Shown here one piece after another: positions 2,416 through 28,988 of a DNA stretch of 46,553 nucleotides. A program made the position numbers and the translations under genes. The notes under the pieces are model-generated. The model was given only the letters and a program-made list of their open reading frames with translations. It had not been told where the DNA came from and did no database searches. Source of the DNA: an uncultured Candidatus Saccharibacteria bacterium (GTDB taxonomy: Bacteria; Patescibacteriota; Minisyncoccia; Phycocordibacterales; UBA9973); NCBI GenBank assembly GCA_964426555.1, contig CAYRQJ010000002.1, positions 114,837 to 161,389 on the forward strand. Direction: 5' to 3'. Positions within the stretch are counted from its first letter, which is position 1. Each line of letters begins with the position of its first letter.

Positions 2416-2871
2416 TTAATTAAATTTTTGCACTATATACCAAACTAGCATAGCTAACCCACCCCACCATAAAGTGTCGGAAATTATAAGACTTACAACA
2501 ATTTTATTTTGCAGTGTTTGTGGTAGTAGTTCATTTACCCGGCCTTCGGACTCCATCTTTAATAAAAATGGGCTAACATAAAATGACAAAAATATTCCAT
2601 TCAAAATTAAAACCACTGCAATAATTGCATGGTACATTGGTACACCAGTAAACGGTACATTGCGATAAATTATGAATCCTCCAATAATTGCCAGCACCGT
2701 ACCAGCCCATATCATTGGCTTGGTTACTTTATGGGTACGAATAGTTGCCTGCGTCCAATACACAGATTTACGCCCCAAGAACCCATGAATATCAATAACA
2801 CTAACAGCATCCAAGCCTATAATAAACCCGGCAAGCATTAGAAATAGTCCAATAAAATTTAAAGTAATCAT
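2416..2871 (-). CDS. integral membrane protein, unknown function
   Basis: 151 aa with about 4 hydrophobic helices. Its start overlaps the stop of the upstream Fic-type gene by one base (TAATG). Confidence 0.6.
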   Translation of the reverse strand: MITLNFIGLFLMLAGFIIGLDAVSVIDIHGFLGRKSVYWTQATIRTHKVTKPMIWAGTVLAIIGGFIIYRNVPFTGVPMYHAIIAVVLILNGIFLSFYVSPFLLKMESEGRVNELLPQTLQNKIVVSLIISDTLWWGGLAMLVWYIVQKFN

Positions 2872-3851
2872 TATTTCAACATTTGTGTTACTAGCGCTGT
2901 CATTTGATCCTTTTTGTTTGGATTACTTTCAGCTATTAATAAAGTTAGTGCTGTCAAAGAAGCCGAATTTATATTTCGGAAATTTTTCGCTTTTGCTTTA
3001 CGCAAAAACCAAACAAAAGCAAAAGCCCCACTTCTTTTATTACCATCTACAAATGGGTGATTCTTTACCATAAAGTATAGTAGATGCGCCGCCTTTTCTT
3101 CTACACTTGCGTATACATCTTTACCGCCAAATGATTGCATAACATTACCGACAATACCGGTAACATTGCCAGTATTTCTTTCTTGGGCAAATATATCTGT
3201 TGCCTCATCTTTTTTCAAAAGTTCATTTTTAAAATCAAAAATTGCCCTGGTTAATTCGTCACCAGTTAATTTAATAGATTTTTTAGTCGTACCGATACTT
3301 GTTAATTTTTCTTTATCATATGCATCCAGTGATACCCACGTAGCTGAAAATTCTTTTACTAGATCTAATATTGCTTTTGGGTCCAATGTTACATGTTCAG
3401 GTAGTAGATTTTGAATATCTGCTACTGACTTCATAAAAGCCTCATAATTTTTACCAATCTGCTTGCGGTTTATAGTATAGCCTTTTATTATGTGTTCTTT
3501 TAGTGTTTTGGTAGCCCAAATACGAAACTGTGTAGCAGTTTTGCTATTTACCCTATAGCCAACAGAAAGAACCATATCTAGATTATAGTGACCAATATCA
3601 CGAAATACTTCTCTACTACCTTCTTTTCGAACTATCCGGAAATTCCGGATAGTTGCCTTTTCTGAAAGTTCATTTGTTTTATATATATTATTTATATGCT
3701 CACTAATTGTTCTAACATCAACACTGAAAGCTTCGGCTATCTGTGCCTGTGTAGCCCATAGCGTCTCATGCTTAAAATCCCCACGGAACTCCAGAGCCCC
3801 ATTCTTTGCTTGATAGATTACCAATTCTTTATTTTTTGTAACCTTTTTCAT
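2871..3851 (-). CDS. RhuM-family / Fic-DOC domain protein
   Basis: N-terminal RhuM-like region (LWATQAQIAEAFSVDVRTISEHINNIY). C-terminal Fic core motif HPFVDGNKRSGAFA. Confidence 0.8.
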   Translation of the reverse strand: MKKVTKNKELVIYQAKNGALEFRGDFKHETLWATQAQIAEAFSVDVRTISEHINNIYKTNELSEKATIRNFRIVRKEGSREVFRDIGHYNLDMVLSVGYRVNSKTATQFRIWATKTLKEHIIKGYTINRKQIGKNYEAFMKSVADIQNLLPEHVTLDPKAILDLVKEFSATWVSLDAYDKEKLTSIGTTKKSIKLTGDELTRAIFDFKNELLKKDEATDIFAQERNTGNVTGIVGNVMQSFGGKDVYASVEEKAAHLLYFMVKNHPFVDGNKRSGAFAFVWFLRKAKAKNFRNINSASLTALTLLIAESNPNKKDQMTALVTQMLK

Positions 3852-5200: not shown

Positions 5201-5728
5201 TTATTTTTTGTAGTATTTACACCCTTTTACATGTGCTCCGGGTAGCAGACCTATGGACATTAGGAATTCATTTACTATTTCCCCGCCGGTAAATTTAAAT
5301 GTTTTCTTGAACAATTTTACCCACTCTTCTTTATTTAAATTTTTTTGTTTCAAAAGCCATTTATGAAACGAACCAGATTCTTTTTGTAAACCTATTATCA
5401 CATTGGCATTATGTATTGCCGCATCTACCTTTAATCGGTTACGGATTATGCCCGCATCGGCCAGTAGCCGTGCACGGTCAGCATCGCCATACTTTGCTAC
5501 TTTCTTAATATTAAAATTGCTATAAGCTTTTTTAAAATTCTTTTGTTTGTTTAGTATTGTATTCCAGCTTAGCCCGGCTTGATTTATCTCCAGTACTAAT
5601 CTTTCAAATAAATCATTCTCATCATTTATATCTACGCCATAAAACTGATCATGATACACACGATGTACATTATCCAGAGGTAATGTTTTTACATAATCGC
5701 AATAAGATTTTGGTTTTTCTTTTTCCAT
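5201..5728 (-). CDS. tag: DNA-3-methyladenine glycosylase I
   Basis: 175 aa; VYHDQFYGVDINDENDLFERLVLEINQAGLSWNTILNKQKNFKKAY is typical of Tag. Confidence 0.9.
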   Translation of the reverse strand: MEKEKPKSYCDYVKTLPLDNVHRVYHDQFYGVDINDENDLFERLVLEINQAGLSWNTILNKQKNFKKAYSNFNIKKVAKYGDADRARLLADAGIIRNRLKVDAAIHNANVIIGLQKESGSFHKWLLKQKNLNKEEWVKLFKKTFKFTGGEIVNEFLMSIGLLPGAHVKGCKYYKK

Positions 5729-5798
5729 TTTATTTAAAAATATTTAAACATTCGTACATTCTCAAGAATGTTGGAATGAATTATTGGTGTTTATATTA

Positions 5799-6161
5799 TT
5801 ACTGCCCTTCTACGAATTTTAATGATATTGAATTCACACAGTGGCGGGTATTTTTGTCGGTTAGCATTTCGCCCATAAATACGTGGCCCAGGTGGCCACC
5901 ACAGTTGGCGCATGTTATTTCAGTCCTACTGCCATCAGCATCGACAGTCCTTTTTACTGCACCCGCAATTTCCGCATCAAAGCTGGGCCAGCCACAGGTA
6001 GACTCAAACTTGTCTTGCGAGTTATACAGTGGCGCATTGCATTGTTTGCATACATACACACCATGGGCCGTATTATTTACATATTCACCAGTAAAAGGTA
6101 TCTCGGTGCCTTTATCCACTATTATTCTCTTTTCTTCTTCATTTAGATTATTTAGTTGCAT
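5799..6161 (-). CDS. msrB: peptide-methionine (R)-S-oxide reductase MsrB
   Basis: 120 aa; CxxC pairs, CGWPSF and GGHLGHVF motifs. Confidence 0.9.
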
Positions 6162-6164
6162 AGA

Positions 6165-6779
6165 TTAAATGATATTTTTTTCTTCACTTAATCTTTTTCT
6201 TAGTTCATCAAGAGTTTCTTCTCTATATTTCCAGTAAGCAGTACCTTGGACTCCATAATCATACCCAAGAATTTTTTGTGCTGAAGTTGAAAGACTAGTT
6301 TTTTCTCCATTAAACTCAATTGATTTATTATCTAAAACTTTGGCTTTAATATTTTCATCTCTACTAAAAACTAATTCAGTTCCAATAGGAAGATTTACCA
6401 TACCAAAATTAAACTTTTCTCTTATTTCTGAACGGACTTGATCAATTGCTTTTTTATCATCCTTATCCTCTATAAAATCTTTTCTAGGTGTTATGTCTTC
6501 TATTTCTATTAATTTCAAAAGTGATCGTACTCTTTCTGGAGAAATTATAAAAAATTCTCTTTTTGGATTAATCCTATTATCAGCAAACGTTTCATGTATT
6601 TGCTTTTCAGCAAAGAATGAATCTTTTACAGTACAAGCATAGAAACAAGTAAAAGGAAGTGGCACTCCAGTCGCGACACTGAGTTCTTTCATTCTTTGCT
6701 CAATACTGCTATTGGTTCTGCCTATTTTTACATATCCAGGCATTGCTTCGTTTGTTAACACATAGATTATTTCATTCAT
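6165..6779 (-). CDS. T5orf172 / GIY-YIG-superfamily domain protein
   Basis: N-terminus IYVLTNEAMPGYVKIGRTNSSIEQRMKEL is the T5orf172 (MUG113-like) signature. The C-terminal ~90 aa are not recognised. The stop lies only 3 nt from the msrB start. Confidence 0.7.
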   Translation of the reverse strand: MNEIIYVLTNEAMPGYVKIGRTNSSIEQRMKELSVATGVPLPFTCFYACTVKDSFFAEKQIHETFADNRINPKREFFIISPERVRSLLKLIEIEDITPRKDFIEDKDDKKAIDQVRSEIREKFNFGMVNLPIGTELVFSRDENIKAKVLDNKSIEFNGEKTSLSTSAQKILGYDYGVQGTAYWKYREETLDELRKRLSEEKNII

Positions 6780-6803
6780 AAATTTTATTATAACATAAAA
6801 TAT

Positions 6804-6828
6804 AAAAACCCCTTTAATTGGGGTTTTT
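6804..6828. terminator. bidirectional hairpin terminator
   Basis: AAAAACCCC-TTTAATT-GGGGTTTTT. Confidence 0.6.
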
Positions 6829-6927
6829 ATATGAACAAGGTATACTTGCCTGTCGCTTTTTAGGTTACCAGTAAAATTATACTGCCTATAAGCTCTAAAG
6901 TACTATGTAACTTTTGCTCAGTTTGAC

Positions 6928-7050
6928 CTATTTTCTATCTCTTCTTTGACGAAGAGCTGATCCAGCAGCAGTCTTAGAATTTTTTCCAGTACTGTTACTC
7001 CTCAACACTTTTGAAGCAGCCTTACCTGCCTTTTTCGATGTAACTGACAT
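6928..7050 (-). CDS. possible 40-aa basic small protein
   Basis: ATG 7048-7050 to TAG 6928-6930: MSVTSKKAGKAASKVLRSNSTGKNSKTAAGSALRQRRDRK. No SD. Below the track length cutoff. The hairpin at 6804-6828 follows it. Confidence 0.25.
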   Translation of the reverse strand: MSVTSKKAGKAASKVLRSNSTGKNSKTAAGSALRQRRDRK

Positions 7051-7146
7051 ATTTTTAAATATTTGTAGTTTTTTATTGAGACCGACTTTTCTCTACCACT
7101 TACTAAGTGTAACATAAATTTATATTAAAATATGGAATGGGTACAA

Positions 7147-8073
7147 TTATGAGTGCCCTATCTTTGCTTCTGGATATTCTGGGTGAGCTACTTTATATCT
7201 TGCCCAGTTGTGGGCCTCTCTTTTATTTTCTGGTATTCTCCAAATTACATAAGGTTCTTGAAGTTCCAGTCCCATAGTAAAAACCAAAATCTCCTCACAA
7301 AGATTGGATAAATTATTCCAGCCAACATCAACTAATGATAAAATATCTTGATTGTTATATGTTGGGAATATAGGTATTACTTCTCCGTTATCTACAGTAT
7401 GTTTTATTTGTGGAAGTTTATACCCGTTGTGTTCTATATCATCTCTTAATTCTTTATAGTCTCTATACCACCCATCTCTATGAGATTGTATGAATTTATA
7501 TAAGTTTTGAAATCTAGCATCAGCATTACTTAACTTAAATGCTTTCGCTCCTTTTTTAAATTTATTTTCATTATCAGTAAACAAGAAAGACATATTGTAG
7601 CCGAACCACTTATGTTGTAGTCTCAACAGTCCTTCTGTTGCCATTGTGCAACGAATAAAGAAGTCTTTAAAGAACATATTGAGTTCAATGTCGATTGGAT
7701 TATTTATGTTAAGTTGATGCCCTTGGAGAATACCATCATGTTTTTCTTTTATGGCTTTTGTGTGGTCGTGTATGTATTTAAAACAAAATTCTTTTGCAAA
7801 TTTTGCTTCAACTAAATTTTGCAACAAAGAACCATAATCCTCATCGAATTCCCCTCTTTTTTCTCTTGGTACAACAAAATCTCTTATCTCTAGATTTTGA
7901 AACATGAATCTATTGTAGAAATCATCTTCTGGTCCGGCTTTAAGTGGTCCATATAGAACACCAGCTTTTGAATCTTGGTTGTTACTTTTATTTTGTTCGT
8001 CTTTAGACATACAGCATTTTTTATATTTCAATCCGCTTCCGCAAGGACATTTTTCATTTCTATTAATTTTCAT
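7147..8073 (-). CDS. SEC-C motif protein with uncharacterised C-terminal domain
   Basis: N-terminal CPCGSGLKYKKCC (SecA-C-type zinc motif). The remaining ~270 aa are not recognised. Divergent from the LexA-methyltransferase gene. Confidence 0.7.
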   Translation of the reverse strand: MKINRNEKCPCGSGLKYKKCCMSKDEQNKSNNQDSKAGVLYGPLKAGPEDDFYNRFMFQNLEIRDFVVPREKRGEFDEDYGSLLQNLVEAKFAKEFCFKYIHDHTKAIKEKHDGILQGHQLNINNPIDIELNMFFKDFFIRCTMATEGLLRLQHKWFGYNMSFLFTDNENKFKKGAKAFKLSNADARFQNLYKFIQSHRDGWYRDYKELRDDIEHNGYKLPQIKHTVDNGEVIPIFPTYNNQDILSLVDVGWNNLSNLCEEILVFTMGLELQEPYVIWRIPENKREAHNWARYKVAHPEYPEAKIGHS

Positions 8074-8076
8074 AGT

Positions 8077-8087
8077 TGTGGATAACT
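8077..8087. promoter_or_regulatory. DnaA-box-like 11-mer TGTGGATAACT (copy 1 of 3)
   Basis: Contains the perfect DnaA-box 9-mer TGTGGATAA (TTATCCACA on the other strand). Lies in the 80-bp divergent gap 67 nt upstream of the ATG at 8154. A candidate promoter TTTACT(8091-8096)-N18-TATAAT(8115-8120) lies just downstream. Confidence 0.3.
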
Positions 8088-8153
8088 TGCTTTACTTTTC
8101 GGTTTTTGTTCGGTTATAATGTAATTGTAGCAAAAGTAGATTTTTATTGCAAT

Positions 8154-10001
8154 ATGTCAACACTAACAAAAAAACAAAAACAAGTCTTTGATTTTATAAA
8201 CACTTATATAGCCGAAAATGGTATCTCTCCTACTATGGATGAAATTAGAATAAATTTAAAATTAAAAGCAGTTTCTACTATACACGAACATATATTGTCT
8301 TTACAAAAAAAAGGTTTTTTATTTAAAGAAGTAAATTCGACAAGAGGAATTTTACCTAAAAAGGAAATAAAATCTATTATAGAAATTCCAATTCTTGGAA
8401 GAATTAAAGCTGGATATCCTCTTGAAGCAATAGAAGAAAAAGAAGGAACGATTTCTATTATAAATAATAAAATCAATTCACCAAAAGATTATTACGCTCT
8501 TAGGGTAGTTGGAGATTCCATGATAGATGACGGAATTTTTGATGGAGATATTGTGATTATAAAAAAACAGTCAACAGCTGATGATGGACAAACAGTTGTG
8601 GCTATAATTGATGAAAATGAAGCAACTCTAAAAAAAATTTATAGAGAAAAAAATCAATTTAGACTAGAACCAAGAAACCCAAATATGTTGCCTTTTTTTA
8701 GGAAAGAAGTAGAAATTAGAGGTATTGTAATTGAAATTATTAGAAATATTGAAACATCAAATATCTATAATTTAAAAAAATACAACGACTTAAAAAGTTT
8801 TTTTGATAAATTAAATTTCCAAAAAGAACATTTTGTAAATTCCAATGATATTTGTACACCAATGGGATGTGTTGAAGAAATGGTTAATATGATACCTGAA
8901 GATTTCTGGCTAACTAAAGGTTTAAAAATACTTGATCCATGTGCAGGTAATGGTAATTTTCATGCATATATTGCAACAAAAACTAATTTAAATAATTTAT
9001 ACTTCAATGAAATAAATAAAAAAAGAATTAATAATATTAAAAAAATCTTTGGTGATTCTGCAAAGATTACAGATAAGGATTTTTTACTATTTGACGAAAA
9101 AGAAGAATATGATTTAGTTGTAGCGAACCCACCTTATGCTAAATTTACAAATGGAGAAAGAACTGCCAAGAACCATAACTTATCTAGAGATTTTATACTA
9201 AAAGCTCTTAATGTTACAAAAAAAGATGGATATATTTTATTTATTGCGCCAGACAATTGGATGTCTTATGCTGATAATAATAAAATCCCGGAAATTTTAA
9301 GTAAATATCAATTTATTTATTTAAACATACATGGTGCAAAAAAATGGTTTCCTGGAGTTGGATCTTCTTTTACTTGGTTTTTGGTAAAAAAATCCCCAAA
9401 CCTTAAAAAATTTACTATATCTAACCATTATAAAATGCCACAAATTGATCAAGTATTATTAGAAAAAAATACGAAATTTATACCTCTTTATTATTCAAAT
9501 TTAGTTAAATCTATTATAAACAAAACCATAAATTCAGAAAAATTAAAATACAAAATTCAAACATCAAGTAATCTGCATAAATATACAAAAAAAGAATATT
9601 TTTCTAAAACAAAAGATTCAAAATTCAAATACAAAATACACCACACACCAAGTCAAACAATTTGGAGTAAAAGTCCACATATATATCAAAATGGGTGGAA
9701 AGTATTTATTTCTTTAACAAATCAATATAGTACTTTTATTGATGAGTGCGGAATGACACAAAGTATAGCTTTTATAAGATGTTCTTCAAAAAAAGAAGCG
9801 GAGGAAATTTCATTAAAATTAAATAATCCCGTATATTTATTTTTAAATAATATTACTAGATATGGCAATTTTAATAATATTAGAGTTTTGCAAAATTTCC
9901 CAGTGTATACAAATTTTAAATTTACAAAAGAAGAAAAAGATTTGATTAAAAAATTTAATAACCTATATTACAATAAAAATAGAGCGCGCTTATTTAACTA
10001 A
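8154..10001 (+). CDS. LexA repressor (wHTH + S24 autopeptidase) fused to a gamma-class N6-adenine DNA methyltransferase
   Basis: ATG at 8154 (the track start at 8076 is TTG). Residues 1-200 are LexA-like: LTKKQKQVFDFI...GISPTMDEI...HILSLQKKGF, cleavage context LGRIKAGYP (Ala86-Gly87), VVGDSM (Ser122) and EATLKK (Lys160). Residues ~230-615 are MTase-like: motif I ILDPCAGNGNFH and motif IV LVVANPPYA (NPPY codons from 9126). Confidence 0.8.
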   Translation: MSTLTKKQKQVFDFINTYIAENGISPTMDEIRINLKLKAVSTIHEHILSLQKKGFLFKEVNSTRGILPKKEIKSIIEIPILGRIKAGYPLEAIEEKEGTISIINNKINSPKDYYALRVVGDSMIDDGIFDGDIVIIKKQSTADDGQTVVAIIDENEATLKKIYREKNQFRLEPRNPNMLPFFRKEVEIRGIVIEIIRNIETSNIYNLKKYNDLKSFFDKLNFQKEHFVNSNDICTPMGCVEEMVNMIPEDFWLTKGLKILDPCAGNGNFHAYIATKTNLNNLYFNEINKKRINNIKKIFGDSAKITDKDFLLFDEKEEYDLVVANPPYAKFTNGERTAKNHNLSRDFILKALNVTKKDGYILFIAPDNWMSYADNNKIPEILSKYQFIYLNIHGAKKWFPGVGSSFTWFLVKKSPNLKKFTISNHYKMPQIDQVLLEKNTKFIPLYYSNLVKSIINKTINSEKLKYKIQTSSNLHKYTKKEYFSKTKDSKFKYKIHHTPSQTIWSKSPHIYQNGWKVFISLTNQYSTFIDECGMTQSIAFIRCSSKKEAEEISLKLNNPVYLFLNNITRYGNFNNIRVLQNFPVYTNFKFTKEEKDLIKKFNNLYYNKNRARLFN

Positions 10002-10495
10002 GACTGTGTACACATTATTGGTAATTTTTTTTGTTTTTTAAGTGAAGTTAATAATTTTTTTTCAAATCTTTTTGCTGGTAAGGCTATTATTTCTTCTTCT
10101 CCAAAAACATCCATTTTTATTTCTGGTGGGAAAAAACCATAAACTTTCACAATTTCATCAATTTTTAATAAACTTTGTAGCACAAAATAATTAGTAACAG
10201 AACATGTTCCTTTGTCTCTATAGGCTTTTTTACCACAATTATAAGAGCGAATTCTATCCTTAAATGAAGTTGTGGCGCTACCAATTTTTATTACTTCACC
10301 CTCCAAAACAAAAACATAGAGTATCCCTTTTTTATTAACTAAGCTGGTATTTGAATTTGAAATAATTATTTTTTCTTCTTTTTTGAAAGGTACAATATCA
10401 CATACAAACAAAAAGTGTCCTTTATGACTAAAATCTTTAAAATTCATTTGGTCAACAATATCTTTTTTACTAAGAATTATATCAGTTTTATTCAT
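9998..10495 (-). CDS. small GIY-YIG-like protein, candidate nuclease partner of the methyltransferase
   Basis: 165 aa; KKGILYVFVLEGEVIKIGSATTSFKDRIRSY fits GIY...YIG...R spacing, with a later acidic residue in RFEKKLL. Its stop overlaps the MTase stop (convergent). The function call is tentative. Confidence 0.5.
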   Translation of the reverse strand: MNKTDIILSKKDIVDQMNFKDFSHKGHFLFVCDIVPFKKEEKIIISNSNTSLVNKKGILYVFVLEGEVIKIGSATTSFKDRIRSYNCGKKAYRDKGTCSVTNYFVLQSLLKIDEIVKVYGFFPPEIKMDVFGEEEIIALPAKRFEKKLLTSLKKQKKLPIMCTQS

Positions 10496-10561
10496 GTTAT
10501 TAATCTTTAATTATAATAAACCAATCCTACCACAAAACTAGCCCAATGAGTTAACACCCAA

Positions 10562-11425
10562 TTACTCTACCGGACAGGTATTTTTGCCCATGGCTTGGTA
10601 TACAAAACACCAGCTAAAGACGGCTTGAAATACCACTACACCTGAGACAAAGATTAAAATCATGCTCCATGTTGTAAGCATCGCAATTAATAGCAAAGCT
10701 ATACCCACACCGGCGCGAATTAGGCGACCCCTTTTATTTATATTTCTTTGGCCGGTTATACCTGCGGTATTTTTGCCAAACTTTTTAAATACTAATCGCA
10801 ATACAAAACCAAATATAAATGCCAATACATACATGACCAGTATCATCCCCCAGCCAAATGGAGATTTGATAAAACCTATTGGTGAACTACCAAAAAAATC
10901 TTTTTTTAATTTTGGTATTATGGTTAGTGCATTCATTCCTTCTTTTTGGTCGAAGGCTTCAAGCTGGCCAATGGCTAGTGAATATTTACTGTCATTGTTG
11001 GGGCTGGATACTGTAATTTCATAAATACCGGCAGTAGCGCGGGATTTGTATTCGGGACCCATCCAGTATGTGTCGGCGCCAAAAGGTTCGTAAAATTTGG
11101 TCCAGGTATGTGTGGGACCCGCGAGTGTAGCGAGCGGGCCTGTGTCGCCCACTTTTACAACTGTTGCCGATACGTCTTTCTTTTGCCCAGCAATGTCTGG
11201 CACCAGTACGTTTACATACAAATCAAAATCTTTGTCGGAATTTATAACATACACATCGGGTACGCCAGCAAGCTTTGCATAATAAGCTTTAGAAATTTCG
11301 GGACTGGGCACCTGTGTTAAACGGCTTTCGGTAATGCGTGGCTGGTGAGCCAAAGCAAATACAGGTAATATTAAAATACCAAAAGCGATAATTAGGAATT
11401 TATTTATGTGAGTAATTTTTTTCAT
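10562..11425 (-). CDS. exported protein with C-terminal DUF2892 (YgaP-like) membrane domain
   Basis: Signal peptide MKKITHINKFLIIAFGILILPVFALA. The C-terminus RLIRAGVGIALLLIAMLTTW...FSWCFVYQAMGKNTCP is DUF2892-like. Confidence 0.6.
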   Translation of the reverse strand: MKKITHINKFLIIAFGILILPVFALAHQPRITESRLTQVPSPEISKAYYAKLAGVPDVYVINSDKDFDLYVNVLVPDIAGQKKDVSATVVKVGDTGPLATLAGPTHTWTKFYEPFGADTYWMGPEYKSRATAGIYEITVSSPNNDSKYSLAIGQLEAFDQKEGMNALTIIPKLKKDFFGSSPIGFIKSPFGWGMILVMYVLAFIFGFVLRLVFKKFGKNTAGITGQRNINKRGRLIRAGVGIALLLIAMLTTWSMILIFVSGVVVFQAVFSWCFVYQAMGKNTCPVE

Positions 11426-13508: not shown

Positions 13509-13519
13509 TGTGGATAACT
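13509..13519. promoter_or_regulatory. DnaA-box-like 11-mer TGTGGATAACT (copy 2 of 3)
   Basis: Identical 11-mer 88 nt upstream of the murQ ATG. Immediately preceded by the hairpin ATGTATAGGTC/GACCTATACAT. Confidence 0.3.
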
Positions 13520-16045: not shown

Positions 16046-16615
16046 TTAAAATTTGCGAATTACAGCACGCACAATAGCGTTGATAAGTAAAAATTGTTTT
16101 GGGTAAATTGGTTTATAATTTTTGTTAGCGGGTTCAAGCCATACCTTGTCACCCTGTTTCTTAAAATATTTCATTGTAAATTCCCCGTCAACATTGGCTA
16201 TAACCATGTCCCCGTCTTTAGCATAGTTTGTTTTTTCTACTATTACCATATCGCCGTCGGCAATGTGGGCTTCTATCATAGAATCTCCATCAACTTCTAA
16301 AATATAAGTATTGTCTTTTTTAGGAGTTAGATAGTCTAATAAATTTAAAGTGTCATTTGCTTCTTCAGCTACGTCTGCTGGGAAACCAGCTTTAATGCTA
16401 CCCAGTAATGGAATATCATTAAAAGATGACTGCGGAACAAGACGACCCAAATGATCTTTAGCAACTATACCCATTTCTATAAGTTTATCTACAACGCGAG
16501 AAACTGCATTCTTGGATTTAAATCCAAACAAATGCATCATCTCGGTATACGTGGGCATTCTTTTTTCCCTACTATAGAATGTATTTAGTTTTTGTTTATA
16601 ATCTTGATTATCCAT
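16046..16615 (-). CDS. lexA: LexA-like repressor (HTH + S24 autopeptidase), stand-alone
   Basis: 189 aa; LLGSIKAGFPADVAEE (Ala-Gly site), EVDGDSMIEAHI (Ser), EFTMKYFK (Lys). N-terminal wHTH-like region. Confidence 0.8.
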   Translation of the reverse strand: MDNQDYKQKLNTFYSREKRMPTYTEMMHLFGFKSKNAVSRVVDKLIEMGIVAKDHLGRLVPQSSFNDIPLLGSIKAGFPADVAEEANDTLNLLDYLTPKKDNTYILEVDGDSMIEAHIADGDMVIVEKTNYAKDGDMVIANVDGEFTMKYFKKQGDKVWLEPANKNYKPIYPKQFLLINAIVRAVIRKF

Positions 16616-16624
16616 TTTTATATT

Positions 16625-16855
16625 TTAGTGTTGGAAAGATGAAGCAGAGAAAAATCGGTTAAACATTGTGCTCTTAATAGAACCTGGTTGTACTTTTTGA
16701 GAACGGAATTTGTGTTGCCAAATCTTTTCTAAAATTATACGGTGGTCACGTGCTTCTTTTACGTACTTTTCACCTATTAAAATTTTGTGGTCGATGATTC
16801 GGTTTAAGATGCGAATCTTCTTTTCTAATTGGCTTAGATATTCTTCGTGTGTCAT
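16625..16855 (-). CDS. hypothetical 76-aa protein co-transcribed with lexA
   Basis: Open frame 9 nt upstream of lexA, behind the SOS-box promoter. No family recognised. Confidence 0.5.
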   Translation of the reverse strand: MTHEEYLSQLEKKIRILNRIIDHKILIGEKYVKEARDHRIILEKIWQHKFRSQKVQPGSIKSTMFNRFFSASSFQH

Positions 16856-16942: not shown

Positions 16943-16953
16943 TGTGGATAACT
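16943..16953. promoter_or_regulatory. DnaA-box-like 11-mer TGTGGATAACT (copy 3 of 3)
   Basis: Identical 11-mer 88 nt upstream of the ATG at 16855, just upstream of the lexA-operon promoter. Confidence 0.3.
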
Positions 16954-27943: not shown

Positions 27944-28988
27944 AAGCTAAAATAGTTCCCAGAATTGAGGTAATGAATCCAATAATCCAAAAACGCATAA
28001 CTACTTGGGTTTTGCTCCAGCCTATGGCTTCAAAATGATGGTGCAATGGTGCCACACGAAATACATTTTTGCCTTTACGGAATTTTTTTGATGCCAACTG
28101 AATAACAACAGAAAGTGATGTAATAAAAAGTGGAAAAACAATAATTGGTAGTAAGATTACTGTGTCTGTAAAAAATGCATAAATGGTAATAAGAGTAGTT
28201 AATGCAAGCATTCCAACTTCGCCCATGTAAAATTGCGCCGGCATAATGTTGTACCAAAGAAAAACTAAGATACTAGCTAAAATTATTACAGCTAAAGCTG
28301 CTAGGTCGTACTGATTACGAAAATATGTAATTACTGCATATGATCCAAAAGTAGAAAGTAGGACTCCTCCGGACAGGCCATCAATCCCGTCAATAACACT
28401 TCCAGAAAAAACACTGAATAATACCAACATAAAGAATGGAATAAATAAATACCCAATATTTAATTCCCCACCCCATGGAATATGCACAGTTGAAATACCT
28501 AGTTTAAAATAAAACCATAAACCAAGAAGTAAACCTAAAAGAATGATAGACCCGGATTTAACAACTCGCATAAAAATAGGATCATCCAATAGCTTACCTT
28601 TACCCCAAATTTGCAAAGAGTCATCAAAAAAACCAACTATCCCAGCAAAAATAAATGCCCCTAATGGAAGTAATGTTTGTGAGCGAGACAAGAAATCTAA
28701 TGATTTAAACGCGGGGATATTTGTAAATTTGGCTAAAATAAAAAGTATTAAAATAGAAGCAACTGTAGTAATAATAATCAAAGCTCCACCAACTCGTGGA
28801 ACACTGGTTTCAAGATCATTACTAATTTTATGAAATTCATTATTTGTTGTATTTTCGTTACGGCTAACTTTACGCCACAATCTTAAACGATAAACTATTC
28901 TACGGAAACTGGGCGCAATACCAAACCCAAAAAAAACTGAAACGATTCCAGCTACAAGTAAACTAGCCATATAATATCCCCCATGCAT
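27933..28988 (-). CDS. mraY: phospho-N-acetylmuramoyl-pentapeptide transferase
   Basis: Polytopic protein; VDGIDGL and APLHHHFE..GWSKTQVVMRFWI motifs. Confidence 0.85.
   Translation of the reverse strand: MHGGYYMASLLVAGIVSVFFGFGIAPSFRRIVYRLRLWRKVSRNENTTNNEFHKISNDLETSVPRVGGALIIITTVASILILFILAKFTNIPAFKSLDFLSRSQTLLPLGAFIFAGIVGFFDDSLQIWGKGKLLDDPIFMRVVKSGSIILLGLLLGLWFYFKLGISTVHIPWGGELNIGYLFIPFFMLVLFSVFSGSVIDGIDGLSGGVLLSTFGSYAVITYFRNQYDLAALAVIILASILVFLWYNIMPAQFYMGEVGMLALTTLITIYAFFTDTVILLPIIVFPLFITSLSVVIQLASKKFRKGKNVFRVAPLHHHFEAIGWSKTQVVMRFWIIGFITSILGTILAFVS

What the first reader, a model, noticed from the sequence alone, without database searches (positions are those of the whole stretch)
6165..10495. 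Compact, more AT-rich accessory block wedged between msrB and a membrane-protein gene
Between the housekeeping msrB (start 6161) and the DUF2892 membrane protein gene (10562) lie five genes unrelated to the surrounding core. They are a T5orf172/GIY-YIG-superfamily protein, a possible 40-aa basic peptide, a SEC-C-motif protein, the LexA-methyltransferase fusion and a small GIY-YIG-like protein. By eye the block is more AT-rich than its flanks, with long A/T runs and Lys/Asn/Ile-heavy proteins. It switches strand twice, whereas the rest of the window is almost unidirectional. The left edge is abrupt, with only 3 nt between the T5orf172 stop and the msrB ATG. There is no integrase, transposase, tRNA or direct-repeat boundary. 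The combination of nuclease-like domains, an MTase and a damage-sensing repressor looks like a defence or R-M-type island of a kind not matched by any named system.
Basis: partly seen in the sequence, partly recalled or inferred. Interest (0 to 1): 0.7.

Follow-up and report, generated by a model that had tools for sequence, protein, structure and literature searches.

The report
Restriction system with LexA-fused methylase
The AT-rich half of this block is a two-gene restriction-modification system whose protective methylase is fused to a complete DNA-damage sensor (LexA) that appears to control its own promoter; this design is common but apparently undescribed in tiny 'candidate phyla' bacteria, and the other genes in the block are unrelated neighbours.

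Summary
All five ORFs exist, but they are not one system. Only 8077-10495 is compositionally foreign (24-27% GC; 46 other genes 34.8±3.4%). That stretch is a Type II R-M pair. The REase is an Hpy188I-family GIY-YIG enzyme (PDB 3oqg, E 6e-40). Its convergent m6A-type methylase carries a full-length LexA at its N-terminus. T5orf172 (PADLOC candidate PDC-S57), the SEC-C protein and the 40-aa ORF have host-like composition. None of them accompanies the R-M pair in 122 related loci.

The fusion is real and selected. Six other diverged M.Hpy188I-type fusions each keep the convergent REase. Relatives of this LexA module are fused to at least five unrelated DNA-methylase families across Patescibacteria, usually beside a REase. 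Ala-Gly, Ser and Lys are invariant in 62 of 62. A direct repeat, TTCGGT-N5-TTCGGT, fills the -35/-10 spacer of the fusion's promoter. It occurs once in the window and at the same place in relatives.

Best model: the methylase represses its own gene, and RecA-stimulated self-cleavage lifts repression after DNA damage, including self-restriction. Binding and cleavage are inferred. A separate host-like LexA lies at 16046-16615. I found no description in the searchable literature. I rate it a new variant of a known kind.

The parts
8077..8086 (+). TGTGGATAAC box. Its reverse complement, TTATCCACA, equals the E. coli DnaA-box consensus (my own knowledge). It marks the left edge of the conserved LexA-promoter module.
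   Evidence: Alignment with eight LexA-C5-MTase promoters starts to align exactly here, and the box is invariant. The motif is present within 130 nt upstream in 37 of 85 LexA(-MTase) loci: 3.6 per kb against 0.11 per kb elsewhere. Its function is unexplained.
8091..8120 (+). Promoter of the fusion gene: -35 TTTACT (8091-8096), 18-nt spacer, -10 TATAAT (8115-8120).
   Evidence: Consensus scan, 10 of 12 matches. The same layout is seen in 36 aligned relatives.
8098..8114 (+). Predicted LexA operator: the direct repeat TTCGGT-TTTTG-TTCGGT, filling the -35/-10 spacer.
   Evidence: It is the only exact copy in the window; 7 sites allow up to 2 mismatches against 2.45 expected. The exact motif occurs once each in L002, L003-6 and L008, always at the fusion promoter. 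It is present with 0-1 mismatch about 33-65 nt (one at -23) upstream of 32 of the 80 GTDB relatives, fused and standalone. With the PWM, 38 of 39 strong sites in 618 kb are at the gene's own promoter. Binding is inferred, not shown.
8154..8753 (+). LexA module of the fusion (residues 1-200): winged-helix DNA-binding domain plus S24 self-cleaving domain. Ala86-Gly87 lie at 8409-8414, Ser122 within 8511-8522, and Lys160 within 8625-8636.
   Evidence: TIGR00498 LexA equivalog 176.1 bits (cutoff 110.95). PF01726 E 5e-14 and PF00717 E 2.5e-29. PDB LexA 3k2z E 2.6e-29 over residues 4-198. Ala-Gly, Ser and Lys are invariant in 62 of 62 fused relatives. Coordinates.
8754..10001 (+). Short linker plus an M.Hpy188I-type gamma-class N6-adenine DNA methyltransferase. 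The DPCAGNG motif is at 8934-8954 and NPPY at 9126-9137. It is in frame with LexA with no stop codon.
   Evidence: PADLOC MTase_II PDLC03273 E 1.9e-163, residues 231-638 of the 641-aa ORF. PF07669 Eco57I. It is 68-74% identical to the MTase part of the six other fusions and about 60-73% identical to more than 100 standalone ~410-aa MTases.
9998..10495 (-). Hpy188I-family GIY-YIG Type II restriction endonuclease (165 aa). It is convergent with the methylase, and the stop codons overlap by 4 nt (9998-10001).
   Evidence: PDB 3oqg Hpy188I E 6.1e-40, residues 2-164 against 14-179. PADLOC REase_II PDLC03493 E 2.4e-41. A 49-66% identical homologue sits convergently behind all six other fusions. Junction checked. 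No terminator-like site lies between or inside the two genes.
10496..10561 (-). A 66-nt region upstream of the REase gene, with TATAAT about 17-22 nt before the ATG and TGGTAGGAT further up. It has no LexA box.
   Evidence: Sequence. No PWM site here or at the R promoters of relatives.
7147..8073 (-). SEC-C-motif protein (308 aa), a neighbour and not part of the R-M unit. Its start codon lies 4 nt from the module edge. A predicted divergent promoter (8152-8124) would read through the LexA operator.
   Evidence: PF02810 on residues 5-22 only. About 50 homologues, largely from Patescibacteria-named MAGs, none with a functional annotation. AF2 pLDDT 90.6 with no PDB or BFVD fold match. Absent from all other R-M loci. 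Promoter prediction.
6928..7050 (-). 40-aa Lys/Ser/Ala-rich ORF of uncertain reality, followed by a strong hairpin terminator at 6800-6832.
   Evidence: No family hit, no Rfam hit, no homologue in 122 loci. The terminator has a 13-pair stem.
6165..6779 (-). T5orf172 (GIY-YIG superfamily) protein, matching the single-gene PADLOC defence candidate PDC-S57. It is an independent neighbour, 3 nt upstream of msrB.
   Evidence: PF10544 E 1.1e-18. PDC-S57 PDLC05041 E 3.6e-71 over its full length. GC 30.1% is host-like. Its only homologue in 122 loci is a 33%-identical one in L090.
16046..16615 (-). Context outside the finding: a resident standalone LexA (189 aa), second gene after a 76-aa ORF (16625-16855).
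   Evidence: TIGR00498 127.5 bits, above the 110.95 cutoff. PDB LexA E 1e-21. 32% identical to the fused LexA module. GC 34.6%. No TTCGGT repeat at its promoter.

Best explanation
Window 8077-10495 is a horizontally acquired two-gene Type II restriction-modification unit of the Hpy188I family. Its likely site is TCNGA with m6A protection. Its methylase carries a complete, cleavage-competent LexA repressor at the N-terminus.

Shown: the homologies, the in-frame fusion, its recurrence, the conserved cleavage residues, and the conserved direct-repeat site in the promoter spacer.

Inferred mechanism: (1) The LexA-methylase binds TTCGGT-N5-TTCGGT between the -35 and -10 of its own promoter. Methylase level then represses methylase synthesis, a homeostatic 'antitoxin'. 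This works like the N-terminal HTH of SsoII-type methylases or a C protein. In a naive host with no repressor, the methylase would be made first. (2) DNA damage, including breaks made by the system's own nuclease at under-methylated sites, activates RecA. RecA stimulates LexA self-cleavage at Ala86-Gly87. The DNA-binding domain is detached, the promoter opens, and methylase rises. (3) The two genes are convergent, their stop codons overlap and no terminator lies between them. Extra methylase transcription would therefore run antisense through the nuclease gene and could lower it. The net effect would be a damage-triggered 'restriction alleviation' for a Type II system.

The LexA-promoter cassette is a portable module. 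Across Patescibacteria it is attached to at least five unrelated methylase families.
For: R-M identity: REase against Hpy188I, PDB 3oqg, E 6e-40. PADLOC REase_II and MTase_II. NPPY motif. TCNGA occurs 44 times against 96.9±9.1 expected and is the second most depleted of 16 XYNY'X' palindromes.

Fusion is real and selected: six other clusters of 611-639 aa at 62-65% identity from independent samples. Each has the convergent REase, and the flanks differ in every case. The linker varies from about 2 to 35 aa while both domains stay intact.

Generality: at least 49 of the 80 closest LexA-module relatives in GTDB genomes are fusions. All 18 partners tested are DNA methylases: PF00145, PF01555, PF02086, and Eco57I/N6_Mtase/TaqI_C. 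Of 10 downstream neighbours, 7 hit Type II REase models and 2 are second methylases. 36 of the top 62 representative clusters are at least 400 aa. 120 of 120 top relatives of the LexA-C5 type are full fusions.

Module shuffling: the window's LexA module is 68-73% identical to modules on C5 methylases but 46-55% identical to those on other Hpy188I-type fusions. The NJ tree intermixes partner types. The promoter, operator and leader align with the C5-type loci from the TGTGGATAAC box onwards.

Cleavage competence: Ala-Gly, Ser and Lys are invariant in 62 of 62.

Operator. It is shared with standalone LexA genes of the same clade (L046, L049, L056, L078), as expected for LexA autoregulation. PMC7739468 lists Patescibacteria among lineages where LexA evolved to bind a direct repeat, and PMC8565304 gives GTTC-N7-GTTC for Alphaproteobacteria.

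Foreign origin: all three parts are 24-27% GC, below every other gene in the window.
Against: There is no experimental evidence for operator binding, RecA-dependent cleavage, methylase induction or antisense repression of the nuclease. The PWM specificity test is partly circular, because the PWM was built from the promoter sites it then recovers. Two of the six other Hpy188I-type fusions (L001, L009) lack the exact TTCGGT repeat, so their operators may differ or be absent.

The recognition site is inferred from about 50% identity to Hpy188I. CTNAG is equally depleted, so the TCNGA depletion is not unique. Raising methylase during an SOS response triggered by phage DNA could weaken defence, so the adaptive logic is uncertain. 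I could not read Sanchez-Osuna et al. 2017 (Environ Microbiol 19:3465), which may already mention such fusions.
Confidence: 0.7

Rival explanations
1. One reading: the five genes 6165-10495 form one co-acquired defence island or multi-gene system that combines nuclease-like proteins, a methylase and a damage sensor.
For: Three of the five products match defence models (PDC-S57, MTase_II, REase_II). Another candidate, PDC-S23, lies at 2871-3851, so the neighbourhood is defence-rich. The SEC-C start codon lies 4 nt from the LexA module, and its predicted promoter would read through the LexA operator.
Against: T5orf172 and SEC-C have host-like GC. Neither they nor the 40-aa ORF occur next to the R-M pair in any of 122 loci covering 840 kb. 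A strong terminator at 6800-6832 separates T5orf172 from the upstream genes. The conserved module begins only at 8077. SEC-C homologues sit in unrelated contexts.
Confidence: 0.08
2. The LexA module is only a DNA-binding and dimerising autoregulator, a built-in C-protein analogue. It does not respond to RecA or DNA damage in vivo.
For: Autoregulation alone explains the operator position. SsoII-type methylases show that a simple N-terminal HTH is enough for this (references in PMC3874152).
Against: The whole S24 domain is retained, and Ala-Gly, Ser and Lys are invariant in 62 of 62 fusions at 40-73% identity. A pure DNA-binding role should tolerate loss of these residues.
Confidence: 0.17
3. 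The fusion is an artefact, or an accidental read-through of the resident housekeeping lexA into an R-M cassette inserted downstream. On this view it is the cell's ordinary SOS repressor.
For: NCBI names related 525-aa proteins simply 'transcriptional repressor LexA'. The LexA part scores above the equivalog cutoff.
Against: Dozens of independent assemblies carry in-frame fusions with variable linkers. The LexA part shares the foreign composition of the R-M genes (26.8% GC, GC3 12%). Its promoter travels with the module. A separate host-composition LexA (127.5 bits) lies at 16046-16615, is only 32% identical, and has a different promoter spacer sequence.
Confidence: 0.03
4. The fusion mainly serves the selfish maintenance of the R-M element or reprograms the host. 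Possible roles: tethering the methylase to specific sites, acting as a decoy that titrates activated RecA, or cross-repressing host SOS genes. Protecting the chromosome would be secondary.
For: Standalone LexA genes of the same clade use the same box (L046, L049, L056, L078), so cross-talk with host regulons is possible in some hosts. The 82-97% identity of C5-type fusions across many CPR lineages suggests very mobile, selfish elements.
Against: In this window the only strong box is at the fusion's own promoter. In relatives, 38 of 39 strong sites are at the gene's own promoter. The resident LexA here is divergent.
Confidence: 0.1

Closest known systems
Hpy188I restriction-modification system of Helicobacter pylori (R.Hpy188I, PDB 3oqg/3or3; site TCNGA from my own knowledge)
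   Same: The REase is homologous over its full length (E 6e-40) and keeps the GIY-YIG core motifs. The methylase belongs to the family PADLOC pairs with this class (E 1.9e-163). It is a two-gene unit.
   Different: The methylase here has a 200-aa LexA at its N-terminus and a LexA-type operator in its promoter. More than 100 close methylase homologues are standalone ~410-aa proteins. The host is a low-GC Patescibacteria-like organism. The site specificity is untested.
Methylases with an N-terminal autoregulatory HTH (SsoII, Ecl18kI, EcoRII, MspI type; cited in PMC3874152)
   Same: A DNA-binding extension on the methylase is predicted to repress the methylase promoter, so methylase level sets its own synthesis.
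   Different: Those carry a short Xre-like HTH on C5 methylases with divergent M/R genes. Here the extension is a full LexA (winged helix plus S24 self-cleaving domain). The genes are convergent, the operator is a direct repeat, and a built-in damage-responsive release step is predicted. No homology between the regulatory parts: Pfam finds PF01726/PF00717, not HTH_3.
Controller (C) proteins of Type II R-M systems (PvuII, Esp1396I and others; my own knowledge and PMC3874152)
   Same: A dedicated transcription factor carried by the R-M unit times and balances M and R expression.
   Different: There is no separate C gene and no palindromic C-box. The regulator is covalently part of the methylase and belongs to the LexA family.
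LexA / SOS repressors and LexA-like repressors of mobile elements (phage CI, SetR of SXT; my own knowledge)
   Same: The same two-domain architecture, Ala-Gly/Ser/Lys self-cleavage machinery, and a box in the gene's own promoter. The direct-repeat box resembles the GTTC-N7-GTTC type (PMC8565304).
   Different: It is fused to an enzyme. The only detectable target is the R-M unit's own promoter. It coexists with a separate resident LexA in the same window.
Restriction alleviation of Type I systems (ClpXP degradation of HsdR; PMC4231737, PMC11109961)
   Same: The proposed outcome is the same: the chromosome is temporarily protected from the cell's own nuclease when unmodified sites or DNA damage arise.
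   Different: The mechanism there is proteolysis of the restriction subunit. Here it would be transcriptional induction of the methylase, possibly with antisense interference on R, through LexA self-cleavage. No such mechanism has been demonstrated for a Type II system, as far as the papers I could search show.

Membership tests
Type II R-M system, Hpy188I family | REase homologous to the GIY-YIG enzyme Hpy188I over its full length | tested here: met
   PDB 3oqg E 6.1e-40, residues 2-164 of 165. PADLOC REase_II PDLC03493 E 2.4e-41. GIY/YIG-like, Arg and Glu motifs are present.
Type II R-M system, Hpy188I family | Adjacent cognate DNA methyltransferase with SAM-binding and catalytic NPPY motifs | tested here: met
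   PADLOC MTase_II PDLC03273 E 1.9e-163. DPCAGNG and NPPY motifs. The M-R pairing is conserved in all 6 related fusions and in the unfused relative L193.
Type II R-M system, Hpy188I family | Cleavage and methylation at a defined site (TCNGA) | not testable with these tools
   Only indirect evidence: TCNGA is depleted 2.2-fold, z about -5.7, but CTNAG is equally depleted.
LexA (TIGR00498 equivalog) | N-terminal LexA winged-helix domain plus C-terminal S24 domain, scoring above the curated cutoff | tested here: met
   176.1 bits against a cutoff of 110.95. PF01726 and PF00717. PDB LexA hits cover residues 1-198.
LexA (TIGR00498 equivalog) | Ala-Gly cleavage site and Ser/Lys catalytic dyad | tested here: met
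   A86-G87, S122 and K160 are present and invariant in 62 of 62 fused relatives.
LexA (TIGR00498 equivalog) | Binds an operator in its own promoter (autoregulation) | tested here: inconclusive
   A conserved direct repeat lies in the -35/-10 spacer of the window and of relatives. Binding itself cannot be tested here.
LexA (TIGR00498 equivalog) | RecA-stimulated self-cleavage and control of an SOS regulon | not testable with these tools
   No other strong box in the 46-kb window. The genome outside the window is not available.
LexA (TIGR00498 equivalog) | Standalone protein of about 200 aa | tested here: not met
   615-aa in-frame fusion with a methylase. The window's standalone LexA is a different gene at 16046-16615.
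SsoII-type autoregulatory methylase | Short Xre-like HTH at the N-terminus of a C5 methylase, binding the M/R intergenic operator of divergent genes | tested here: not met
   The regulatory part is LexA_DNA_bind plus Peptidase_S24, the methylase here is gamma-class N6A, and the genes are convergent. The resemblance is functional only.
C-protein-controlled R-M | A separate small HTH controller gene and a palindromic C-box upstream of C/R | tested here: not met
   No such ORF lies between or beside M and R. The R upstream region has no box.
PADLOC candidate PDC-S57 (T5orf172) | Full-length match to the PDC-S57 profile | tested here: met
   PDLC05041 E 3.6e-71, residues 2-199 against profile positions 5-208 of 212. 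Anti-phage activity was not tested here, and PDC systems are candidates only.
Genomic/defence island acquired as a unit | Compositional shift over the whole block, mobility genes or boundaries, and co-occurrence of members elsewhere | tested here: not met
   The shift covers only 8074-10561. No tRNA, repeat or integrase. No co-occurrence beyond M and R.

The most novel reading that the evidence does not exclude
A portable cassette is the general controller of Type II restriction-modification systems in Patescibacteria and neighbouring candidate phyla. The cassette comprises a DnaA-box-like site, a promoter, a direct-repeat operator and a self-cleaving LexA. It has been recombined onto at least five unrelated methylase families. 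This wires the 'antitoxin' methylase directly to RecA-sensed DNA damage, giving the first transcriptional restriction-alleviation circuit for Type II systems.

A corollary follows. Many proteins annotated 'transcriptional repressor LexA' in these phyla are R-M components, so the inferred Patescibacteria LexA motif and SOS network may partly describe R-M controllers rather than a cellular SOS response.
Probability: 0.4. Interest if true: 0.85.

Novelty: new variant of a known kind. Interest (0 to 1): 0.7.

Why it matters
R-M systems must keep the methylase ahead of the nuclease, or they kill their host. The known solutions are C proteins, methylase HTH extensions, antisense RNAs and, for Type I only, proteolytic restriction alleviation.

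A methylase fused to a cleavage-competent LexA suggests a different and directly testable solution. The damage the nuclease causes would itself induce the antidote.

The design recurs on at least five methylase families and in hundreds of metagenomic clusters from candidate-phyla bacteria. From my own knowledge, these organisms have tiny genomes, few regulators and a heavy reliance on R-M for defence. So this may be a main regulatory strategy there.

There is also a practical annotation issue. Databases label these proteins either 'LexA' or 'methyltransferase', never both. That mislabelling can distort both SOS-regulon reconstructions and R-M censuses.

Tried and rejected
1. Synteny test. A metagenome scan with the YgaP-like flank returned 33 loci at 39-72% identity. 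None shares msrB, tag or any block gene; only L097 shares the 155-aa ORF and pspC. These relatives are too distant to delimit an insertion.

2. Boundaries. No tRNA within 35 kb. Only low-complexity repeats flank the block. No integrase or transposase.

3. RNA elements. No Rfam hit in 5700-10700 at E up to 1.

4. SEC-C protein. The AF2 model is confident (pLDDT 90.6), but Foldseek finds nothing significant in the PDB (best E 0.067, TM at most 0.27) or BFVD (best E 0.02). Its contexts vary. Function remains unknown.

5. Annotated phages and plasmids. No record covers more than 30% of the fusion; hits are to the LexA part only. IMG/VR carries only standalone relatives.

6. Unfused intermediate. 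The closest unfused M-R pair (L193) has an IS-type transposase upstream, not a separate lexA. L194 is a methylase cluster without the REase.

7. Other LexA boxes in the window. The next-best PWM hit (18.1 bits, 28923-28943) lies inside a coding region.

8. Literature. Six keyword searches found no description of LexA-methylase fusions. The one paper most likely to mention them, Sanchez-Osuna 2017, is not held.

9. The TTG start at 8076 was rejected in favour of the ATG at 8154.

Full report
OBSERVATION.
T5orf172 is confirmed (PF10544, E 1e-18). The SEC-C motif covers residues 5-22 of a 308-aa protein. The fusion carries LexA_DNA_bind, Peptidase_S24 and an Eco57I-type methylase domain in one frame. 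The 3-nt gap to msrB and the strand pattern are correct. So is the absence of a tRNA and of flanking repeats.

The compositional claim is only half right. Per-gene GC shows that T5orf172 (30.1%) and SEC-C (32.5%) lie within the spread of 46 other genes (34.8±3.4%, minimum 28.3%). The LexA part (26.8%), the methylase part (24.0%) and the small nuclease (26.1%) all fall below every other gene (profile). The foreign segment is therefore about 8077-10560, not 6165-10495.

WHAT THE RIGHT HALF IS.
The 'small GIY-YIG-like protein' is a full-length homologue of the restriction enzyme Hpy188I (PDB 3oqg, E 6e-40; PADLOC REase_II, E 2.4e-41). The C-terminal 410 residues of the fusion match one PADLOC Type II methylase model at E 1.9e-163. 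They carry DPCAGNG and NPPY motifs. The two genes are convergent, their stop codons overlap by 4 nt, and no terminator lies between them. This is an ordinary Hpy188I-type R-M pair, apart from the methylase's N-terminus. TCNGA, the Hpy188I site (my own knowledge), occurs 44 times in the window against 96.9±9.1 expected. It is one of only two strongly depleted XYNY'X' palindromes; the other is CTNAG. This is consistent with the assignment but is not proof.

THE FUSION IS REAL.
Residues 1-200 score 176 bits on NCBI's LexA equivalog model (cutoff 111). They align end to end with solved LexA structures. A search of 5.8 billion proteins found six other fusion clusters of 611-639 aa at 62-65% identity. 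Of the 113 other listed hits, 112 are standalone methylases of about 400-450 aa and one is 588 aa. I fetched the DNA for all six. Each fusion is followed by a convergent Hpy188I-type nuclease, 49-66% identical. The flanking genes differ in every case. The linker between LexA and methylase varies from about 2 to 35 residues while both domains stay intact. That rules out an assembly or frameshift artefact.

THE OPERATOR.
Upstream of the ATG at 8154 lie a -35 (8091-8096) and a -10 (8115-8120). The spacer between them is filled by the direct repeat TTCGGT-TTTTG-TTCGGT (8098-8114). It is the only exact copy in 46.5 kb. The exact pattern occurs once each in L002, L003-6 and L008, always at the fusion promoter.

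I scanned GTDB genomes with an alignment of the seven LexA modules. Thirty-two of the 80 loci returned carry the repeat with 0-1 mismatch, about 33-65 nt before the start codon in all but one, and abutting a TATAAT-like -10. They include standalone LexA genes of the same clade, which is the classic signature of LexA autoregulation. A PWM built from these sites finds 39 strong sites in 618 kb of loci. Of these, 38 are at the gene's own promoter and none is at a nuclease promoter; 197 kb of control loci give one site. This test is partly circular. The direct-repeat form agrees with the literature. LexA boxes of the GTTC-N7-GTTC type are known (PMC8565304). PMC7739468 cites the Patescibacteria SOS study among cases where LexA evolved to bind a direct repeat.

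THE DESIGN IS GENERAL.
The main surprise came from the same scan. At least 49 of the 80 closest relatives of this LexA module are themselves fusions of 443-888 aa. Nearly all come from Patescibacteria MAGs, with a few labelled Omnitrophota or Elusimicrobia.

Pfam identifies the partners as C5 cytosine methylases (20 loci), two N6_N4 architectures, three D12/Dam-like groups, and Eco57I/N6_Mtase/TaqI_C enzymes. An exhaustive search of 1.84 billion representatives with the LexA module alone gave 36 of the top 62 clusters at 400 aa or more. Ten of ten tested are again LexA plus a DNA methylase. Nearly every fusion gene abuts a downstream ORF. Of ten representatives of those ORFs, seven hit diverse Type II REase models and two are second methylases. 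For the C5 type alone, all 120 listed clusters (82-97% identity) are full fusions. Sources label them either 'transcriptional repressor LexA' or 'cytosine methyltransferase'. Ala-Gly, Ser and Lys are invariant in 62 of 62 fused modules.

THE MODULE IS PORTABLE.
The window's LexA module is 68-73% identical to modules on C5 methylases. It is only 46-55% identical to modules on other Hpy188I-type fusions. Its methylase part, by contrast, is 68-74% identical to those same proteins. A rough NJ tree without support values scatters each partner type over several positions and intersperses standalone LexAs.

At the DNA level, the window aligns with C5-type loci from a TGTGGATAAC box at 8077 through the -35, operator, -10 and leader. 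Nothing aligns upstream of that box. The left edge of the acquired unit is therefore 8077, 4 nt from the SEC-C start codon.

A SECOND LexA.
The window also encodes a standalone 189-aa LexA at 16046-16615. It scores 127.5 bits, above the cutoff, and has an Ala-Gly site and Ser/Lys motifs. Its GC is host-like. It is only 32% identical to the fused module, and it has no TTCGGT repeat at its promoter. The fused LexA is thus not the cell's only LexA. It appears to have a private operator.

MECHANISM.
Homology, architecture, conservation and site placement are shown. The rest is inferred. The LexA-methylase binds its own promoter spacer, so methylase abundance limits methylase synthesis. RecA activated by DNA damage, including self-restriction at under-methylated sites, triggers cleavage at Ala86-Gly87 and derepression. 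The convergent, terminator-less layout could let increased M transcription interfere with R. The outcome would resemble restriction alleviation, so far known for Type I systems through ClpXP (PMC4231737, PMC11109961).

The main rival is a purely autoregulatory, damage-blind module. It fits poorly with the invariant cleavage residues.

THE REST OF THE BLOCK.
T5orf172 matches the single-gene candidate PDC-S57 over its full length (E 3.6e-71). It has its own short promoter region and lies downstream of a strong terminator at 6800-6832. The SEC-C protein belongs to a family of about 50 members, largely from Patescibacteria-named MAGs, with no functional annotation. Its predicted fold is confident but unmatched, and its contexts vary. 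The 40-aa ORF has no support beyond being open. None of these genes accompanies the R-M pair elsewhere. A RhuM/Fic protein at 2871-3851 matches candidate PDC-S23. The first 10.5 kb is therefore a loose mix of defence-type genes and housekeeping genes (tag, msrB), not a discrete island. The remainder of the window is ordinary chromosome: metK, gap, gatB, an aminoacyl-tRNA synthetase and dnaB.

NOVELTY AND VERDICT.
R-M systems, LexA, and methylases with regulatory N-termini are all known. A full, cleavage-competent LexA fused to R-M methylases, with its operator, spread modularly across methylase families, was not found in six literature searches. It was also absent from annotated phage and plasmid records. 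One relevant paper could not be read. I class it as a new variant of a known kind, with interest 0.7.

Noticed in passing
window 16046-16855 (-): A resident standalone LexA (189 aa; TIGR00498 127.5 bits; AG/Ser/Lys present; host-like GC). It is the second gene after a 76-aa ORF with no family hit. Its promoter has GTGTACGCTCGTTCACA in the -35/-10 spacer, a possible different LexA box, and a TTATCCACA box upstream at 16944-16951.
   Followed up: partly
window 8077-8086; also L010-L066 and others, about -45 to -85 from the start codons: A TGTGGATAAC box (reverse complement = the DnaA-box consensus TTATCCACA) is 32-fold enriched upstream of LexA-methylase genes. It is found in 37 of 85 loci, and only one of those is a standalone lexA (L045). 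It marks the edge of the conserved module. Other window copies lie at 13510 and 16944 (intergenic) and at 6112. It might couple methylase expression to DnaA and replication, but this is unexplained.
   Followed up: partly
window 2871-3851 (-): A RhuM/Fic-domain protein matches PADLOC candidate PDC-S23 at E 9e-111. It is a third defence-type gene within 10 kb, separated from the block by phnA-like, tag and msrB genes.
   Followed up: no
window 7147-8073 (-): The SEC-C-motif protein family has about 50 members, largely from Patescibacteria-named MAGs, and some lack the SEC-C motif. The AF2 model is high-confidence, helical with small beta-hairpins, and has no significant match in the PDB or BFVD. 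About 20 columns are invariant, including His104, His215, Cys259 and Glu260. One homologue lies on a contig with a D5-type primase (L123).
   Followed up: partly
window 8124-8152 (-): A predicted divergent promoter (TTGCAA-N17-TACAAT with an upstream TG) lies inside the conserved leader of the fusion gene. It would drive SEC-C transcription through the LexA operator, so the neighbouring gene might be damage-regulated by accident of position.
   Followed up: no
whole window: CTNAG is as depleted as TCNGA (47 observed against 106.6 expected, z -6.4). This hints at a second restriction pressure of DdeI-like specificity somewhere in this lineage. CGNCG and ACNGT are over-represented.
   Followed up: no
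P0327, P0328, P0371, P0375, P0398, P0400 and others: Public annotation names 525-aa LexA-C5-methylase fusions 'transcriptional repressor LexA'. Others are named 'DNA (cytosine-5)-methyltransferase 1'. This is a systematic labelling problem for SOS and R-M surveys of candidate phyla.
   Followed up: partly
L126-L136 (IMG/VR contigs of 6-9 kb): Standalone LexA genes from the clade that uses the TTCGGT box (65-79% identical to L064, L078, L056) sit on small contigs classified as viral. These may be repressors of Patescibacteria phages or mobile elements.
   Followed up: no
L001 12373-12514; L193 2-478 and 4985-5749: One Hpy188I-type fusion locus ends in what reads as the 3' part of a tRNA gene (GGTTCGATCCC...) just upstream of the REase gene. 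The closest unfused M-R pair lies beside an IS-type transposase and a Prim-Pol/D5 primase gene. Both hint at how these units move.
   Followed up: no
window 6780-7146: An unusually long (367-nt) intergenic stretch for this compact genome. It holds the 40-aa basic ORF and a 13-bp-stem bidirectional-looking terminator (6800-6832). No Rfam match.
   Followed up: partly
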